A stretch of DNA of 64,000 bases from a bacterium (lineage in GTDB: Bacteria > Electryoneota > JAOADG01): positions 256,001-320,000 of the forward strand of contig OY820579.1 of assembly GCA_963681965.1 (NCBI GenBank), in the 5' to 3' direction. The position numbers were made by a program, and so were the translations under genes. Below the pieces are notes generated by a model that was not told where the DNA came from, ran no database searches, and saw only the letters and a list, made by a program, of their open reading frames with translations. The stretch's first letter is position 1, and each line of letters opens with the position of its first letter. Below, one piece after another: positions 56,920-62,710 of this stretch.

Positions 56920-57939
56920 CTAAAATGGTAGATCGTCATCGATCTCATTTTTCCCGACATGTTCTTTAACATTTTCACTACACGTTTGTTGACATAAGAA
57001 ATATCCGGATTGCGTTAATGTAAAATATTCTATTTCTAAATTGTGAGTGTCCGATTTTACACTACTTCTATTGATTAATTTCATCTCATTTTCAACTGTT
57101 TCGAGATCTTTATATAAATCGCCAACTTCAACAAAAATCCAACTACTTCTGTCATCTAATTCAAATGGTAGGTTAATACTGCTTGATGAATAAGCTGATT
57201 TAACTATATCATTTAAAATACCAAAACAAATATCTCCATTCTTATACATAAATTCTAATGAACGCGCCTGATTGTCGTTCAGTACCGACCACATACCCAT
57301 CAACATTCTTTTTTCATTTTCGCTGGGTTGATCCGTATTAGTAGAAGTTATTTCACTGTTTGTCGTTACTGAGTTTTTCGCAAACCTATGGAAATTTTCG
57401 CTGGTAATTTTACTATTATCGTAAACATTTTGTGGAACATCTCGCATTACATTATTCATCAAACTTGAAATACAGTTGATAATCTCATTTGCAAATTCCT
57501 CTTCAGTATTATACTCTTTATAGAGTATGTTCTCTTGAAGTGTTTTCTTATACTCCTGCAACCTATCAAATTGGCATCTATCGTGATTTTGAGGTATATC
57601 TCTCGTGCAAAAAAACAGCATTACCTTTTTATTATTCTTTCTTGCCTCCTCGATTTCATGAATAGTTCCACTTGGATATTTCTGTGTAGGCGATCCAATT
57701 TTGCTCCAGAATATACCTATGACGACATCACATTCATCTGCCGCTTGTTCTTGAATAACTTCCTGAGGATGCCCATCAGCAGGATATACGTTTTCCCAAC
57801 CTTTAGCAAGAATGACGTAGTGAGTATTACTAGAATTAATATCATTCCACTTTTGGATTTGTGCCTTTAAGATGTTTCTTTCACGTTCAACATCATTTGG
57901 TGACGCAATGAAAACGGAAATTACTTTTGCTGGATACAT
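56920..57939 (-). CDS. DUF4062/TIR-like domain protein
   Basis: VFIASP.DV..ER, PQ..I, CD..IGIFW..IGSP, SGT..EI; AT-rich; ends DDDLPF. Confidence 0.8.
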   Translation of the reverse strand: MYPAKVISVFIASPNDVERERNILKAQIQKWNDINSSNTHYVILAKGWENVYPADGHPQEVIQEQAADECDVVIGIFWSKIGSPTQKYPSGTIHEIEEARKNNKKVMLFFCTRDIPQNHDRCQFDRLQEYKKTLQENILYKEYNTEEEFANEIINCISSLMNNVMRDVPQNVYDNSKITSENFHRFAKNSVTTNSEITSTNTDQPSENEKRMLMGMWSVLNDNQARSLEFMYKNGDICFGILNDIVKSAYSSSSINLPFELDDRSSWIFVEVGDLYKDLETVENEMKLINRSSVKSDTHNLEIEYFTLTQSGYFLCQQTCSENVKEHVGKNEIDDDLPF

Positions 57940-58564: not shown

Positions 58565-58590
58565 CACGGCACGACTTTCGTCGTGCCGCG
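58565..58590. terminator. hairpin between convergent genes
   Basis: CGGCACGAC-TTTC-GTCGTGCCG. Confidence 0.65.
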
Positions 58591-58618: not shown

Positions 58619-60817
58619 TTACTTCACCAGCACCAGCTTGCGAACGGCACTGTACCGGCTAGCCTCGAATTTGAGGAAGTAAATACCGGTTGCCAGTTTG
58701 TCCGCGCGGATGAGCTGTGAATGCGTGCCCGCATTGACTTTACCGCTGAACAACGTTTCCACTTCACGCCCGGTTACATCAAACAGTCGCATCGTGATAT
58801 TCATCGATGTCGGCACTGTGAAGTTCACAGTCGTGGAGGGGTTGAACGGATTCGGATATGCTTCACTGACCGTAATCGCACTCGGCATTTCGATCGGCTC
58901 GCCAGCGGATTGGGTACCGTTGCCGACGCGCAATGCAACCGGAATGGTTACCGGTGCCGGGATATTCCCGCGGAACTGGATCGTTCCAGTCAGCGAGGAG
59001 TCGGTGTGGATATTATACGAATTCGCATTGATACCGATCGTACGTTGTGCTCCGGCACCCAACACAAACGAAACCGGCGACGCATTGCCCCAACTGTACA
59101 ACGGGGACAAATTCAACGTGCGACTCGCTGGAACCGCGGTATTGTATGCAATCTGAGTGAATTCGGTGGCACTCGACTGAATACCGATGGTGGCACTGCT
59201 CAAATTACCAGTCATATTCCGATAGACAAATTTGATCGTTCCGTCATTGGCATTCAAGATAATTTCGAACGACATCGTCGAGGACGGATCGCCGGTGCGA
59301 TACACATCTTCCCACGCGAATACTGCAATCCCACGTTCCAAATCGGTCAGGTAATACGCTTGTCCATCCGGAACCGTAAGATCATCCCAGAACGGTGCGA
59401 GCATGGTCGTCGCCACATTCGTCGGGAATTCGGTATTCGTCGTACTTGTCGTCGTACGAATCGAATTGAAAGTGATGAATCCACTCGAGGACATAATAAA
59501 CTGTGGATAATAATACCCGAACATCGGGAATTGAATATCCATCGGGTACGGACCTACCGCCGTATTTCGACCAACCGGACCGAGTTGCGAGTTGCCGGTA
59601 TCGGCAACAAACCATTCGGTTCCAGAGGTTGAATATTGGTATTCGTTTCGACCCAAAACCGCCGAAACAGTACCGATAAACCGATCGGTTCCGGAATTGC
59701 GGATCGTGATACTGGCATTGTCCTGCGCCAACGTATCCATCGTGAACGATAGACTGTCGGGACTTAGCGTAATAGAAGTGATTCCTACTACCTGGAAATT
59801 CTTGGGCGAGATTTCGACATGATTCCCTTCGACAATCTTAATTCGGCATGCCGTTGCAGTCGGACCCGGTACCGTCCAAGTGTAACTTCCGGTATTCGGT
59901 GCTGATGTCGTAATTGTGTCCCAAGTGCCAGTCGGATAGTTCCGATTGTAGAGCAGCGTCAAGTTGCCGGAGAACACCAAGGGTTCCCACATGATGTGAG
60001 TGGTGTCGCCGACAAAGAACAACTCGTCGCCTACTGGCGCCGTGACGTTGCAAGTGGTTTTGTACGCCGATTGGTATACTTCACGGGCAGAACCAGACGA
60101 AGTCTCATTCTGAACCCACACGATAGCAGCACAGCTATCCGCAGTGAATGCCGTCGCGCCAGTCGATCTCACCGGAAATTGACCGGTAAACGTCAACGTG
60201 TCGGATGTTCGACCGGAATGTGTAAAGCTGTAACCCGCAGAGGTACTTCCGGCAAAACCATCGAATGGCCAATAAAACGTGGTCATTCCATTTCGGGTCG
60301 CCGTTGCCAGTCGCTTGAATGTTGTGACAATACCGATGCGAAGTTTTACGTTGTTGAATGCACTGTCGGCAACCGCTTTCACAATCACGTTGAGGGTATC
60401 GCGATTGGCACTGGGACTGTTGATCACCTTCAGCCAAATATGCGAAGCCACTCGTCCACGATTGGTAATAGCGGTTAACATTGCAGCGGCATTCCCTGCA
60501 CTCGACGACGCTCCGTCGAGATATCCCGCCGGAATTGAATTTACACCATATGCAGTACGTCGCGCTTCGTTATCGGTCGGATTTGCCAAATACCAGATAT
60601 CGTAATTGGCTGTCGGCCAATTCTGGTGGTAAAAAACTGGTGTTACTACGTCTCTTCCTTGCCCCGCAAGAAATGGATCGAGCCACGCGTGCTCGGTCGC
60701 ACAGCCGGGTCAAGACGTGCTGGTAAACCCTTCGAACAAGACCGTACGCGGATAACTGAAAGCAGTTACCGAGCAGGCGAGTACGAAGAGCGCGGAAAAT
60801 AAACGCAATTTCTTCAT
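58619..60817 (-). CDS. predicted secreted selenoprotein: Omp28-like thioredoxin (UxxC) domain, Ig/NIDO-like domains and T9SS CTD (732 aa, Sec36)
   Basis: SD GGGAG, ATG 60817, signal peptide, RTVLFEGFTSTS-TGA-PGC, YHQNWP, YGVNSIP...DG in frame with listed ORF 58619..60589; LAPFWDDL; YPNPFNPST CTD. Confidence 0.82.
60676..60698 (-). promoter_or_regulatory. putative bacterial SECIS element
   Basis: mRNA GA-C-CGAGC-ACGCGUG-GCUCG-A-UC hairpin, apical loop about 20 nt 3' of the UGA; folded by eye. Confidence 0.55.
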
Positions 60818-60973
60818 CGATACTCCCATTCTCAAAGAATCAAACACTCTTCGCCAAACATCGGTTTAGCTACTCTATAATAATCAATTCCAGTACATTC
60901 CAAAAACAATCTCTTTGCTATTTTAATTTTTTCCAATGTTGTCTAAAAAAGTGTCAGTCGATCGCATGAGAGT

Positions 60974-61030: not shown

Positions 61031-61624
61031 TTAGTGGCAACCAGCGAATCGCTTACTGACATCTGCCCAATTCAACAAATTCCACCAAGTTTCGACAAAA
61101 GCGGCTCGTTTGTTCTGGAATTTCAAATAATAAGCGTGTTCCCAGACATCCAGAACAAGCAACGGGGTAACACCCCAGACCGTTAGATCCTGATGCTTTT
61201 CCGATTGCAGAATTTCCAGTTTCTTGCCACGCGGTTCCCACGCTAAAATTGCCCAACCGCTACCCTCAACGGCAACAGCGGCTGCGGAAAACTGCTTCTT
61301 GAACGTTTCGAAACTACCGAAATCGCGATTGATTTGCTCGGAAATCGGACCAGTCGGCAATCCACCAGCATTGGGTGCCATATTTTCCCAATACATCTGA
61401 TGCATGAAGTGTCCGGAACCGTGAAATGCTACTTCTCGCGACCAATGCTTCACCAACGAAAAGTCGCCGGCTTCGCGGGCAGCGGCAAGTTTCGCTTCGG
61501 CATTGTTCAGTCCGTCGACATAGGCTTTGTGATGCATATCGTGATGTAAACGAACAGTTTGTTCGTCCATGTGTGGTTCTAACGCGTTGTAAGCATACGG
61601 TAATGGCGGTAATTCGTACGGCAT
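61031..61624 (-). CDS. Fe/Mn superoxide dismutase
   Basis: LPPLPYAYNALEP, HH..HH..YV, GSGW, DVWEHAYY; metal specificity not assigned. Confidence 0.97.
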   Translation of the reverse strand: MPYELPPLPYAYNALEPHMDEQTVRLHHDMHHKAYVDGLNNAEAKLAAAREAGDFSLVKHWSREVAFHGSGHFMHQMYWENMAPNAGGLPTGPISEQINRDFGSFETFKKQFSAAAVAVEGSGWAILAWEPRGKKLEILQSEKHQDLTVWGVTPLLVLDVWEHAYYLKFQNKRAAFVETWWNLLNWADVSKRFAGCH

Positions 61625-61819
61625 TTTGTTACTCCTCAAATTGTCGGAACAGCCGGGGAAACCGGCATATTTACATTCAAAAGATTGTTACAATATTACT
61701 GTAAAATGGTACGGATTTCGGATTCAAACGTTGGCAGTGCCGATTTCGTTGATCCAGCGTAATACTCTCTGAGTGATATCAATGAAATCGAGTTCCAGAG
61801 GTAATCGAAAAAAACGGTC

Positions 61820-62710
61820 TTACTCATGTTCCGGACGGGTTTTCCAGCGGCGATGTAACCACAACCATTGCTCGGGATATTCCCGAACGGTTCGTTCCAA
61901 GCGAGCGGTAATCCGTTTCATCCCCTCTTCGACAGCGGCATCGTGATCGGCAGGTAGATCGGACAAGTCCATCCGTTCATAGGTTACTCTAAATTTTCGA
62001 TTTCCGAGCCGGATCCCTTCGGTAAAGAAAACCGGTGCCCCGGTACGTAACGCAAACACCATTGCACCTCGAGGTGTCGAAGCGAGTCGCCCGAAAAACG
62101 GCACAAATACCCCTTCCCGGTGCCCATCTTGATCGCAGAGGAGCGCAATCAGTCTACCGCTTCGAAGTGCGCGGAGCGTGCCTTTGGCAGCATTGTCGTT
62201 GCGATTCACAATCTCGATGCCGCATCCTTGGCGAAGCGAGTCCATTTCAGCTTCGATCAATCGGTTGGCTTGCGAGGCAACGATGTAGGTGAGCGGGATA
62301 CCGCTTAACGAGGTTCCCGCTCCCATCCATTCCCAATTACCGAGATGCCCGGAAACACCGATTGCCCCTTTCCCTTCGGCAAGTCCGGCACGCAATTCTT
62401 CCAAACCGCGGAACTCCATCTGACTGGTAATATTTTCTGAAGTCAGCAACGGGAGCCGAGCAAATTCCGCGAGTGTTCTTCCAAACGAGCGGTACATTTC
62501 ATTGGCGATTTGGTGGCACTCGGATTCGGTTTTTTCGGGAAATGCCAGCATCAATTGTTCGATCGCCACCCGCTTCCGAATACCAATCAAAGCAATCAAT
62601 GAACCAATTCCCGCACCGATCGCGCGCGAAGTTTGCAACGGCGTTATGCGAAAGATCGATTCGATGCCACGAATTGCCCACAGCTCCAATTTTGCCCGAA
62701 AAGAATGCAC
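61820..62710 (-). CDS. lipid A lauroyl/myristoyl acyltransferase (LpxL/HtrB family)
   Basis: H.GNWE, DQ, FVPFFG, PEQWLWLHRRWK. Confidence 0.92.
   Translation of the reverse strand: MHSFRAKLELWAIRGIESIFRITPLQTSRAIGAGIGSLIALIGIRKRVAIEQLMLAFPEKTESECHQIANEMYRSFGRTLAEFARLPLLTSENITSQMEFRGLEELRAGLAEGKGAIGVSGHLGNWEWMGAGTSLSGIPLTYIVASQANRLIEAEMDSLRQGCGIEIVNRNDNAAKGTLRALRSGRLIALLCDQDGHREGVFVPFFGRLASTPRGAMVFALRTGAPVFFTEGIRLGNRKFRVTYERMDLSDLPADHDAAVEEGMKRITARLERTVREYPEQWLWLHRRWKTRPEHE

What the first reader, a model, noticed from the sequence alone, without database searches (positions are those of the whole stretch)
58619..60817. Predicted T9SS-exported selenoprotein: Omp28-like UxxC thioredoxin hidden by an in-frame UGA
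Seen: SD GGGAG, ATG 60817, signal peptide MKKLRLFSALFVLACSVTAFS, then YPRTVLFEGFTSTS-TGA(60712-60710)-PGCATEH...YHQNWP...NP....RR..YGVNSIP..YLDG, continuing in frame into the listed 656-aa ORF, which on its own lacks a signal peptide despite its CTD. Known: Omp28-like domains begin VL.E.FT..WCxxC, UxxC is the classic Sec replacement of CxxC, and bacterial SECIS hairpins lie just 3' of the UGA. TGA is a normal stop elsewhere in this window. Inference: a 732-aa surface or extracellular selenoenzyme with Ig/NIDO-like stalk domains. I know of no characterised T9SS-secreted selenoprotein, and standard annotation would truncate this gene.
Basis: partly seen in the sequence, partly recalled or inferred. 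Interest (0 to 1): 0.92.

Follow-up and report, generated by a model that had tools for sequence, protein, structure and literature searches.

The report
Secreted thioredoxin-like selenoprotein gene, mis-annotated
A gene that seems to be cut by a stop codon is really one 732-residue exported redox protein in which that codon encodes selenocysteine; it is a well-supported case, but a distant relative of this protein type was already predicted to be a selenoprotein in 2008.

Summary
On the minus strand, ATG 60817, a signal peptide and an in-frame TGA (60712-60710) run on to TAA 58619. This makes one 732-codon frame with U36-P-G-C39.

The selenoprotein reading is strongly supported:
- The genome has tRNA-Sec, selA, selB and selD.
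- Two of three paralogs carry TGA in the same column.
- Across 61 related genomes, 45 of the 46 homologs flagged "1 TGA" have the TGA exactly there. The 23 non-TGA homologs examined have Cys (22) or Ser (1).
- RNA hairpins 3' of the UGA covary in Sec members and are at chance level in Cys members.

The head domain models confidently (pLDDT 92.7) as a thioredoxin fold plus beta-sandwich. Its only strong PDB match is P. gingivalis HBP35, a T9SS cargo with thioredoxin activity. The C-terminus is a type-A T9SS sorting domain, and SprA and PorU are present.

NCBIfam NF045500 ("Omp28-related selenoprotein", also called "GOS_C", 2008) is a distant relative. The window protein scores 15-17 bits against a 200-bit cutoff, so it is a separate clade with a different architecture.

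A second conserved hairpin at +40..+58 is unexplained. There is no expression or selenium evidence.

The parts
58619..60817 (-). Whole coding sequence: 732 codons plus TAA, with one in-frame UGA read as Sec.
   Evidence: The same architecture occurs in paralogs and homologs.
60920..60947 (-). Sigma-70-like promoter match (weak, consensus only).
   Evidence: The number of matches found was not above the number in shuffles.
60823..60827 (-). Shine-Dalgarno GGGAG, 5 nt before the ATG.
   Evidence: read directly from the sequence.
60755..60817 (-). Signal peptide, aa 1-21 (MKKLRLFSALFVLACSVTAFS). The likely cleavage site is just before YPR.
   Evidence: judged by eye because no signal-peptide predictor was available. 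Homologs show the same hydrophobic leader directly before [YF]x[R] and strand 1.
60710..60712 (-). UGA codon 36, read as selenocysteine.
   Evidence: The column holds U in 45 homologs and Cys or Ser in 23.
60701..60703 (-). TGT codon 39, the resolving Cys of UxxC.
   Evidence: Invariant column C16 in the 42-sequence alignment A5.
60676..60698 (-). Proximal SECIS-like hairpin, +15..+37 from the U of UGA. Its core is CGAGC / loop ACGCGUG / GCUCG, with the apical loop starting at +23.
   Evidence: -9.4 kcal/mol. Family-wide, 39 of 44 Sec members have a hairpin of -7 kcal/mol or better with its loop starting at +16..+32, against 10 of 22 Cys/Ser members.
60655..60673 (-). Distal hairpin, +40..+58: UUUCUUGC / loop GGG / GCAAGGAA.
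   Evidence: It is 90.7% paired in 20 Sec members, with compensatory changes in 5 of 7 pairs, and 41.1% paired in the 8 nearest Cys/Ser relatives.
60068..60748 (-). HBP35/Omp28-like head, aa 24-250: a thioredoxin fold (aa 24-123) followed by a beta-sandwich (aa 127-249).
   Evidence: AF2 model with pLDDT 92.7 and pTM 0.90. Foldseek hit to 5y1a (HBP35): E 3.9e-9, TM 0.78. Profile hits to 1fo5, 5y1a and 2r2c. Pfam Omp28 matches 40 of 42 homologs.
59330..59497 (-). NIDO-like segment, aa 441-496 (the matched N-terminal part of the domain).
   Evidence: PF06119 scores 19.2 bits here, below the 25-bit cutoff. It scores above the cutoff in L025, L026 and L030, which share the architecture.
58631..58858 (-). 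Type-A T9SS C-terminal sorting domain, aa 654-729.
   Evidence: PF18962 scores 41.4 bits (cutoff 27) and TIGR04183 scores 39.7 bits (cutoff 23).
58565..58590 (-). Intrinsic-terminator-like hairpin after the stop codon.

Best explanation
The minus-strand frame 60817-58619 is one gene for a 732-residue selenoprotein.

Shown:
- The UGA at codon 36 sits at the first position of a thioredoxin-type [U/C]xxC motif, at the N-terminus of helix 1. In homologs this column holds either Sec (TGA) or Cys.
- The genome has the full bacterial Sec-insertion machinery.
- RNA hairpins directly 3' of the UGA are conserved by compensatory change, and only in the TGA-bearing members.

Inferred mechanism:
- SelB with Sec-tRNA(Sec) is recruited by the proximal hairpin (apical loop from +23). 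A second hairpin at +40..+58 may assist. Sec is inserted and translation continues.
- The signal peptide takes the protein through the Sec translocon.
- The C-terminal type-A sorting domain hands it to the T9SS (SprA translocon, PorU sortase). The protein ends up on the cell surface or in the medium.
- There the HBP35/Omp28-like head, with its U36-P-G-C39 centre, acts as a selenol/thiol-disulfide oxidoreductase, as the Cys homolog HBP35 does in vitro.
- The all-beta middle, which includes a NIDO-like module, serves as a spacer or binding part.
For: Sec machinery:
- tRNA-Sec scores 63.8 bits (over cutoff), and ARAGORN calls it SeC with anticodon tca.
- selA scores 481 bits, selB 364 bits and selD 337 bits. 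selD has its own in-frame TGA.

Conservation:
- Two of the three paralogs in this genome carry TGA at the same column and the third has Ser. They are 43-46% identical to the window protein.
- In 61 related genomes there are 122 matches, 46 of them flagged '1 TGA'.
- I fetched all 46. In 45 the TGA is at this column; in 1 it is not.
- Of the 76 matches without TGA I examined 23: 22 have Cys and 1 has Ser.

RNA structure:
- Folding z-score against codon-order shuffles is -1.30 for Sec members (n=44) and -0.17 for Cys/Ser members (n=22), p=0.0002.
- A proximal hairpin of -7 kcal/mol or better occurs in 39 of 44 Sec members and 10 of 22 Cys/Ser members, p=9e-6.
- In the triloop subgroup, 93.8% of cells are paired, 8 of 8 pairs show compensatory changes, and 0 of 500 shuffles reach this. 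The same structure on Cys members gives 29.5% paired.
- The distal hairpin is 90.7% paired in Sec members and 41.1% in the nearest Cys/Ser kin.
- selD in the same genome has a comparable hairpin with a G-first triloop at +24..+26.

Protein:
- See for the head, and for the CTD.
- T9SS machinery: SprA about 700 bits, PorU 619.5 bits, and at least 150 CTD ORFs.
- HBP35 has thioredoxin activity that depends on its two Cys, and it carries a T9SS CTD (abstract of PMC2907840).

Sequence integrity: contigs from 4 runs are identical over the site.
Against: - There is no direct evidence of expression, selenium incorporation or secretion. No RNA run was listed.
- The window protein itself scores below the curated cutoffs for Omp28 (no hit), NF045500 (15-17 bits against 200) and NIDO (19.2 against 25). 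Its family assignment rests on homologs, the profile and the fold.
- Its own proximal hairpin uses a register shifted relative to its closest relatives, breaking 2 of the 4 consensus pairs. Its 7-nt loop starts with AC, not G.
- The well-conserved distal hairpin lies about 45 nt from the UGA. That is farther than the usual bacterial SECIS spacing, a figure I recall rather than tested.
- The hairpin subgroups A3 and A4 were picked by eye, A3 by the very feature then counted.
- The sequences are kin, so the p-values overstate the case.
- The signal peptide was judged by eye.
- An electron donor for a redox enzyme outside the cell is unknown.
Confidence: 0.82

Rival explanations
1. It is a real selenoprotein and T9SS cargo, but the U-x-x-C pair mainly binds a ligand rather than cycling as an oxidoreductase. 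Candidates are heme (as in the hemin-binding function of HBP35) or a soft metal or metalloid chelated by selenolate and thiolate.
For: The closest characterised relative, HBP35, binds hemin and is needed for growth under hemin limitation (abstract of PMC2907840). No obvious reductant exists outside the cell. One paralog has Ser instead of Sec or Cys, and one homolog (L070) has C-U-G-G-S. The redox pair is therefore not strictly required in every member.
Against: The resolving Cys is invariant in the 42 aligned members. The cis-Pro-like P73 and the position of U/C at the start of helix 1 are classic thioredoxin catalytic geometry. HBP35's thioredoxin activity depends on the two Cys. I did not examine where HBP35 binds hemin.
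Confidence: 0.2
2. The TGA is a nonsense mutation or a true stop. The locus would then be a pseudogene, or a 35-residue ORF followed by the annotated N-terminally truncated protein (620-656 aa).
For: Table 11 gives exactly these two ORFs, and the public protein set holds the 620-aa form. A different CTD gene in this genome (C1:3601649-3602998) does have a lineage-specific in-frame TGA that looks like a plain nonsense mutation.
Against: The TGA is at the same column in 45 homologs from 24 genomes, including 2 paralogs only 43-46% identical. The frame is conserved on both sides. The truncated product would lack the signal peptide and half of the thioredoxin fold. Hairpins specific to Sec members follow the codon. 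In the control pseudogene the TGA occurs in only 1 of the 61 matches found across the 61 genomes, and the column holds R/G/Q/A/T/E, never Cys.
Confidence: 0.03
3. It is a sequencing or assembly error (true codon TGC/TGT), or the organism reads TGA as a standard amino acid throughout its genome.
For: None was found. This is only the general possibility for a single in-frame stop.
Against: Contigs from 4 runs in 2 studies show no difference at the site, although one may be the source of the assembly. The same TGA occurs in paralogs and in other genomes. Eleven of 34 long ORFs in the window end in TGA. The genome carries a dedicated tRNA-Sec and SelB.
Confidence: 0.01

Closest known systems
HBP35 of Porphyromonas gingivalis (PDB 5y1a): hemin-binding T9SS cargo with a thioredoxin domain
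   Same: It shares the two-part head, a thioredoxin fold plus a beta-sandwich. Foldseek gives E 3.9e-9 and TM 0.78 over 245 columns, and it is the only PDB hit at E<=0.001. The profile hit is 3.4e-6. Both have a redox motif at the start of helix 1, an N-terminal export signal and a T9SS C-terminal domain. Thioredoxin activity in vitro is reported in the abstract of PMC2907840.
   Different: HBP35 has CxxC, not UxxC. Aligned identity is only about 11%. HBP35 is about 344 aa, whereas this protein is 732 aa with an added all-beta middle that includes a NIDO-like module. Heme binding was not tested here.
NCBIfam NF045500 'Omp28-related selenoprotein', listed as 'Hypothetical protein GOS_C' (Zhang & Gladyshev 2008; in the table of the 2026 review PMC13188914)
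   Same: It is a predicted UxxC selenoprotein with a Trx-like fold and many Cys homologs (passages of PMC2398784; review table). The N-domains of 39 of 42 family members here match this model weakly.
   Different: The window protein scores 15.2-17.1 bits against the 200-bit cutoff. None of the 61 related genomes has a match above the cutoff; the best is 63.4 bits. In the passages I read, GOS_C is described as a hypothetical protein of unknown function, with no mention of T9SS, Omp28 or NIDO.
Omp28 family (Pfam PF11551; NF033782 Omp28 family outer membrane lipoprotein; PDB 2r2c)
   Same: PF11551 matches 40 of 42 family N-domains at E<=0.01 and scores above its gathering cutoff in L037, L040 and L045. 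Chain 2r2c aligns to the beta-sandwich half.
   Different: The window protein itself has no PF11551 hit. Members here carry T9SS CTDs. I saw no lipobox in the homologs' signal peptides, though this is by eye only.
Known Sec-containing thioredoxin-fold proteins of bacteria (Trx, Grx, DsbA-like, DsbG-like, thiol:disulfide interchange protein; UxxC)
   Same: Sec replaces the first Cys of CxxC in a thioredoxin fold, and Sec and Cys forms coexist across species (table of PMC13188914). A small SECIS hairpin with a G in the apical loop follows the UGA (PMC1088965 passages).
   Different: Those are cytoplasmic or periplasmic single-domain proteins. This one is a large multi-domain T9SS cargo. In its subgroup it has a second conserved hairpin at +40..+58.
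MJ0307-type minimal thioredoxin (PDB 1fo5; TIGR00411)
   Same: It gives the best sequence-profile match to the thioredoxin half (E 6.5e-8, profile positions 2-98). TIGR00411 matches 6 of 42 members.
   Different: It is an 85-residue cytoplasmic archaeal protein with CPHC and no added domains.

Membership tests
Bacterial SelB/SECIS-dependent selenoprotein gene | In-frame UGA aligned with Cys in homologs, with conserved coding sequence on both sides. | tested here: met
   Forty-five homologs have U at the column. Of the other homologs examined, 22 have Cys and 1 has Ser. The alignment flanks are conserved.
Bacterial SelB/SECIS-dependent selenoprotein gene | tRNA-Sec, SelA, SelB and SelD encoded in the genome. 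| tested here: met
   all four score over the curated cutoffs. The genome is 99.9% complete and a single contig.
Bacterial SelB/SECIS-dependent selenoprotein gene | A stem-loop just 3' of the UGA with a small G-containing apical loop, conserved in Sec members only. | tested here: met
   At family level. The window gene has a hairpin of -9.4 kcal/mol with loop ACGCGUG starting at +23. The loop contains G, but not in its first two positions, and the register differs from close kin.
Bacterial SelB/SECIS-dependent selenoprotein gene | Selenium actually incorporated at the UGA. | not testable with these tools
   This needs 75Se labelling or mass spectrometry.
NF045500 Omp28-related selenoprotein (GOS_C) | Score at or above the curated cutoff of 200 bits. 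| tested here: not met
   The score is 15.2 bits for the full protein and 17.1 bits for the head. None of the 61 related genomes scores over the cutoff.
NF045500 Omp28-related selenoprotein (GOS_C) | UxxC motif in a Trx-like fold. | tested here: met
Omp28 / HBP35-like head (PF11551 plus a thioredoxin domain) | PF11551 at or above the gathering score (34.9 bits). | tested here: not met
   The window protein has no hit at E<=0.1. Homologs L037 (37.1), L040 (35.7) and L045 (45.8) pass, and 40 of 42 match at E<=0.01.
Omp28 / HBP35-like head (PF11551 plus a thioredoxin domain) | Fold: a thioredoxin domain packed on a beta-sandwich, as in 5y1a. | tested here: met
   The model has pLDDT 92.7. Foldseek to 5y1a gives E 3.9e-9, probability 1.00 and TMq 0.78.
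Thioredoxin fold oxidoreductase | [C/U]xxC at the N-terminus of helix 1, and a cis-Pro loop before strand 3. | tested here: met
   In the model, U is residue 13 and C is residue 16, before helix 14-30. The invariant P73 sits before strand 74-77. The cis conformation itself was not checked.
Thioredoxin fold oxidoreductase | Disulfide reductase or isomerase activity. | not testable with these tools
   There is only the analogy with HBP35.
T9SS type-A cargo | C-terminal sorting domain scoring over the cutoffs. | tested here: met
   PF18962 scores 41.4 against 27, and TIGR04183 scores 39.7 against 23.
T9SS type-A cargo | N-terminal Sec signal peptide. | tested here: inconclusive
   A typical basic / hydrophobic / AxS pattern is seen by eye. 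No predictor was available.
T9SS type-A cargo | T9SS machinery in the genome. | tested here: met
   SprA totals 700 bits in one frame. PorU scores 619.5 against 420. There are at least 150 CTD matches.
T9SS type-A cargo | T9SS-dependent secretion and CTD cleavage. | not testable with these tools
   This needs secretome or mutant work.
NIDO domain (PF06119) | Score at or above the gathering cutoff of 25 bits. | tested here: not met
   The window protein scores 19.2 bits at aa 441-496. L025 (30.1), L026 (28.7) and L030 (36.1), which share the architecture, pass.

The most novel reading that the evidence does not exclude
This is one of three paralogs of a phylum-wide family of cell-surface or extracellular selenoenzymes exported by the T9SS. 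The compartment and the export route have not been reported for bacterial selenoproteins in the literature I could search. In this subgroup Sec insertion would use a bipartite signal. The usual proximal hairpin would be joined by a second, independently covarying hairpin about 45 nt downstream, whose G-first triloop resembles the SelB-binding loop of the genome's own selD SECIS. In that arrangement the proximal stem would act partly as a compacting spacer.
Probability: 0.3. Interest if true: 0.72.

Novelty: new variant of a known kind. Interest (0 to 1): 0.52.

Why it matters
- Annotation. This gene, its two Sec paralogs and at least 42 homologs in 23 other genomes are likely truncated by standard gene callers. 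Here the deposited product lacks the signal peptide and the catalytic half of the head domain.
- Biology. This would place a selenocysteine redox centre on the outside of a Gram-negative cell, delivered by the T9SS. It extends the single characterised Cys precedent, HBP35. It also raises the question of what an extracellular selenol does, and what re-reduces it.
- RNA. Sec-specific hairpins in several subgroups, with different loops and registers, plus a second hairpin in some, form a natural series. It could be used to define what SelB in this phylum accepts.
- The case is not a new principle. UxxC thioredoxin-fold selenoproteins are common, and a distant Omp28-related selenoprotein family has been known since 2008.

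Tried and rejected
- Rfam scan of 60400-60900. Only chance-level hits were returned. I saw no bacterial SECIS family among them.
- Expression. No RNA holder was listed for this stretch. The runs I laid are contigs only, so they say nothing about transcription.
With two single proteins it found nothing.
- Sec machinery against Sec-form presence across genomes. selA scores over its cutoff in 57 of 61 genomes, so the comparison has little power. The three genomes without a match are G001, G004 and G043. G001 has 720 contigs and yet carries TGA forms. G004 and G043 have only Cys forms.
- Link to the upstream Fe/Mn superoxide dismutase gene (61034-61639). A terminator-like hairpin separates the two genes. 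SOD lies next to the homolog in only 1 of 36 loci, the window's own. I rejected the link.
- Full-length AF2 model built from 5 sequences. Mean pLDDT was 61.5 and pTM 0.38, too weak for a fold search. It suggests only an all-beta middle, so the 'Ig-like' claim stays unverified.
- Scan of all CTD genes in the genome for upstream in-frame TGA. I used my own CTD HMM and a crude signal-peptide heuristic, and looked only at the last TGA before the CTD. Of 234 CTD frames, 100 had an upstream in-frame TGA. Only the three known paralogs combined a leader with UxxC. One further candidate (C1:3601649-3602998) was rejected as a nonsense mutation. Another (near C1:2844135) was not followed up.
- A single hairpin register for all 44 Sec members does not exist. 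Registers differ between subgroups, so the covariation tests were done per subgroup.
- Supplements of the selenoproteome papers were not seen. They may list members of this clade.
Full report
**Observation**

On the minus strand GGGAG (60827-60823) precedes ATG 60817. A basic and hydrophobic leader of 21 residues follows, then YPRTVLFEGFTSTS, then TGA (60712-60710), then PGCATEH. The frame stays open to TAA 58621-58619, giving 732 codons. Under table 11 the locus splits into a 45-aa ORF and the listed 656-aa ORF. The public protein collection holds only a 620-aa product of this gene (P0002), so gene callers did truncate it.

TGA is an ordinary stop here: 11 of 34 ORFs of at least 250 aa in the window end in TGA. 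Contigs from four public runs (two studies) are identical over 60300-60900. Three span the whole stretch, and one may be the assembly's own source.

**Sec machinery**

The genome is a single 4.24-Mb contig, 99.9% complete. It encodes:
- tRNA-Sec (63.8 bits, over cutoff; ARAGORN calls SeC with anticodon tca);
- SelA (481 bits), SelB (364 bits) and SelD (337 bits), with SelD itself carrying one in-frame TGA.

**Sec/Cys alternation**

The genome holds three paralogs of the same architecture, 43-46% identical in the head. Two have TGA at the same column (U-P-Y-C and U-S-F-C). One has AGC, Ser (S-P-E-C).

A six-frame search of 61 related genomes (the tool's kinship labels run from same genus to same phylum) found the head in 57 genomes. 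There were 122 matches, 46 of them flagged '1 TGA'. That count is mine, from the table, and it agrees with the per-genome totals.

I fetched all 46.
- In 44 the TGA is at the first position of the xxC motif by pattern match.
- In one more (L070, motif Y-C-U-G-G-S) it is at the same column by eye.
- In one (L084) the column is Cys and the TGA lies elsewhere.

Of the 76 matches without TGA I examined 23: 22 have Cys and 1 has Ser. Sec forms occur in 24 of the 61 genomes and in five of the eight family-level groups. None was seen in groups f2 (15 genomes), f6 (12) or f7 (1).

A contrasting control came from the same genome. Another CTD gene (C1:3601649-3602998) has an in-frame TGA that appears in only 1 of the 61 matches found across the 61 genomes. 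Homologs carry R/G/Q/A/T/E at that column, never Cys. That is what a plain nonsense mutation looks like, and the finding's TGA does not look like it.

**RNA 3' of the UGA**

Over +4..+70, Sec members (n=44) fold more stably than Cys/Ser members (n=22). Mean MFE is -21.1 against -17.6 kcal/mol. The z-score against codon-order shuffles is -1.30 against -0.17, with Mann-Whitney p=0.0002.

A single hairpin of -7 kcal/mol or better, with its apical loop starting at +16..+32, is present in 39 of 44 Sec members and 10 of 22 Cys/Ser members. Medians are -11.1 and -6.2, p=9e-6. The sequences are kin, so these p-values overstate the case.

Registers differ between subgroups, so I tested covariation per subgroup.
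- **Triloop subgroup.** I picked 16 sequences by eye because they share an 8-bp stem with a GNC-type triloop at +21..+23. This is selection by the feature itself, which I flag. RNAalifold finds the stem. 93.8% of cells pair, 8 of 8 pairs show double-sided changes, 0 of 500 shuffles reach this, and slid partners give 26-48%.
- **Negative control.** The same structure on the 22 Cys/Ser sequences pairs 29.5%, which is chance level.
- **'NWGU' subgroup (10 sequences).** RNAalifold predicts a proximal hairpin with loop GAUCC(C), and also a distal hairpin. 92.1% of cells pair, against 85.4% in shuffles and 27-52% with slid partners.

The window gene's own proximal hairpin has the core CGAGC / ACGCGUG / GCUCG, with the loop starting at +23 and -9.4 kcal/mol for +11..+40. 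It is in a register shifted relative to its seven closest relatives.

selD in the same genome has a long hairpin with a G-first triloop (GGA) at +24..+26. So the family's proximal hairpins resemble a bona fide SECIS of this organism. [quoted passage not shown] The usual UGA-to-loop spacing I cite is recalled, not checked.

**A second hairpin**

In the window's subgroup and the NWGU subgroup (20 sequences, chosen by eye) a distal hairpin occupies +40..+58. In the window gene it is UUUCUUGC / GGG / GCAAGGAA.
- 90.7% of cells pair.
- 5 of 7 pairs show compensatory changes.
- The covariation score is 0.632, against 0.227 in shuffles, and 0 of 500 shuffles reach it.
- In the eight nearest Cys/Ser relatives of those subgroups, the same columns pair 41.1%, which is chance.

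The distal hairpin is not family-wide: 23 of 44 Sec members against 9 of 22 Cys/Ser members have one, p=0.32. I cannot say what it does.

**The protein**

An alignment of 42 head domains has these invariant columns: the resolving Cys, E6, D50, P73 (in the position of the thioredoxin cis-Pro), G79 and G172.

AlphaFold2 on this alignment gives pLDDT 92.7 and pTM 0.90. The model is a thioredoxin fold with U/C at the N-terminus of helix 1, followed by a beta-sandwich. Its only PDB match at E<=0.001 is HBP35 of Porphyromonas gingivalis (5y1a): E 3.9e-9, TM 0.78, 245 columns.

The sequence profile finds:
- the MJ0307 thioredoxin 1fo5 (6.5e-8);
- HBP35 (3.4e-6);
- Omp28 chain 2r2c (0.011, aligned to the sandwich half).

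Pfam Omp28 matches 40 of 42 members at E<=0.01, and NF045500 matches 39 of 42. The window protein itself is below every one of these cutoffs.

[quoted passage not shown] It shows thioredoxin activity that is abolished by mutating the two Cys, and it binds hemin.

**Export**

The C-terminal domain of the window protein scores above both curated cutoffs: PF18962 41.4 against 27, and TIGR04183 39.7 against 23. The genome encodes SprA (about 700 bits), PorU (619.5 bits) and at least 150 CTD frames. My own HMM found 234 CTD frames.

**Middle region**

The middle carries a NIDO-like segment. It scores 19.2 bits here. It scores above the 25-bit cutoff in three homologs with the same architecture. Other subgroups keep the head and the CTD but have a different middle, with weak ThuA and DUF4159 hits. 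A full-length model is of low confidence (pLDDT 61.5).

**Gene context**

The gene looks monocistronic. Terminator-like hairpins lie before it (61003-60978) and after it (58590-58565). The upstream SOD gene is not a conserved neighbour.

**What is known**

[quoted passage not shown] The 2008 GOS paper describes GOS_C as having 74 Sec sequences, 312 Cys homologs, a Trx-like fold and unknown function (PMC2398784, passages).

The window protein scores 15-17 bits against that model's 200-bit cutoff. None of the 61 related genomes has a member above the cutoff; the best is 63.4 bits.

Full-text searches gave nothing relevant:
- 'Omp28' with 'selenoprotein' returned 0 papers.
- 'selenoprotein' with 'type IX secretion' returned 1 irrelevant paper.
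- 'selenocysteine' with 'T9SS' returned 2 papers. One I checked and it is unrelated. The other I judged only by its title.
- Haft's 2022 preprint does not mention Omp28 or T9SS.

Within that library I therefore found no report of a T9SS-cargo selenoprotein. Supplements and subscription journals were not searched.

**Verdict**

This is a genuine, mis-annotated selenoprotein gene (about 0.93). It is very probably a T9SS cargo (about 0.8) with an HBP35-like redox head. A thiol/selenol-disulfide oxidoreductase role is the best functional guess (about 0.6), with ligand (heme or metal) binding as the main rival.

It is a new variant of a known kind. The chemistry (UxxC in a thioredoxin fold) and a distant sister family are known. 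Three things are new relative to what I could find: the T9SS-exported multi-domain architecture, its spread across this phylum with multiple paralogs, and the second Sec-specific hairpin.

Noticed in passing
G000:C1:2411001-2414803 (loci L027, L001): The Sec paralog U-S-F-C lies about 1.5 kb downstream of the tRNA-Sec gene on the same strand. One short-chain dehydrogenase ORF (adh_short_C2, 249 aa) lies between them. This may be coincidence.
   Followed up: partly
G000:C1:201711-203930 (locus L025): The fourth paralog has Ser (AGC) at the Sec/Cys column (S-P-E-C) and lacks both hairpins. It is a monothiol-type variant of the same architecture.
   Followed up: partly
L070 (G053:C17:48088-49198): One homolog has Y-C-U-G-G-S. 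The Sec is at the usual column, but Cys sits immediately before it and Ser replaces the resolving Cys.
   Followed up: no
G000:C1:3601649-3602998, minus strand (L113/L114): A T9SS-CTD gene with a signal peptide and a CxxCH motif has an in-frame TGA found in only 1 of the 61 matches across the 61 genomes. Homologs carry R/G/Q/A/T/E at that column, so it is a probable nonsense mutation or pseudogene. An intact paralog lies next to it at C1:3604043-3604633.
   Followed up: yes
G000:C1 near 2844135, plus strand: A CTD protein with WxVG-type repeats has a TGA directly after its signal peptide (...AQPG-TGA-EWQNPLPQ...). I did not check it against homologs.
   Followed up: no
G000:C1:4177383-4178309, minus strand (L018): selD is itself a selenoprotein gene (...DCAG-U-AAKIG...). 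Its SECIS is a long hairpin with the apical triloop GGA at +24..+26.
   Followed up: partly
Loci L029, L037, L040, L045, L052: Other subgroups keep the Omp28/HBP35-like head and the CTD but replace the Ig/NIDO middle with a different module, which gives weak ThuA and DUF4159 hits. The redox head therefore behaves as a portable module on T9SS cargo.
   Followed up: partly
Related genomes G006, G007, G011, G012, G016, G017, G021, G025, G029, G033, G037: Several genomes of the phylum, among them 8 of the 9 sampled in group f5, have two full-length selA matches above the cutoff.
   Followed up: no
Window 56923-57939 (-), 61034-61639 (-) and 61823-62710 (-): The neighbours are a DUF4062 protein, an Fe/Mn superoxide dismutase and a lipid A acyltransferase. 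None is conserved next to the homologs examined; only SOD was tested.
   Followed up: partly
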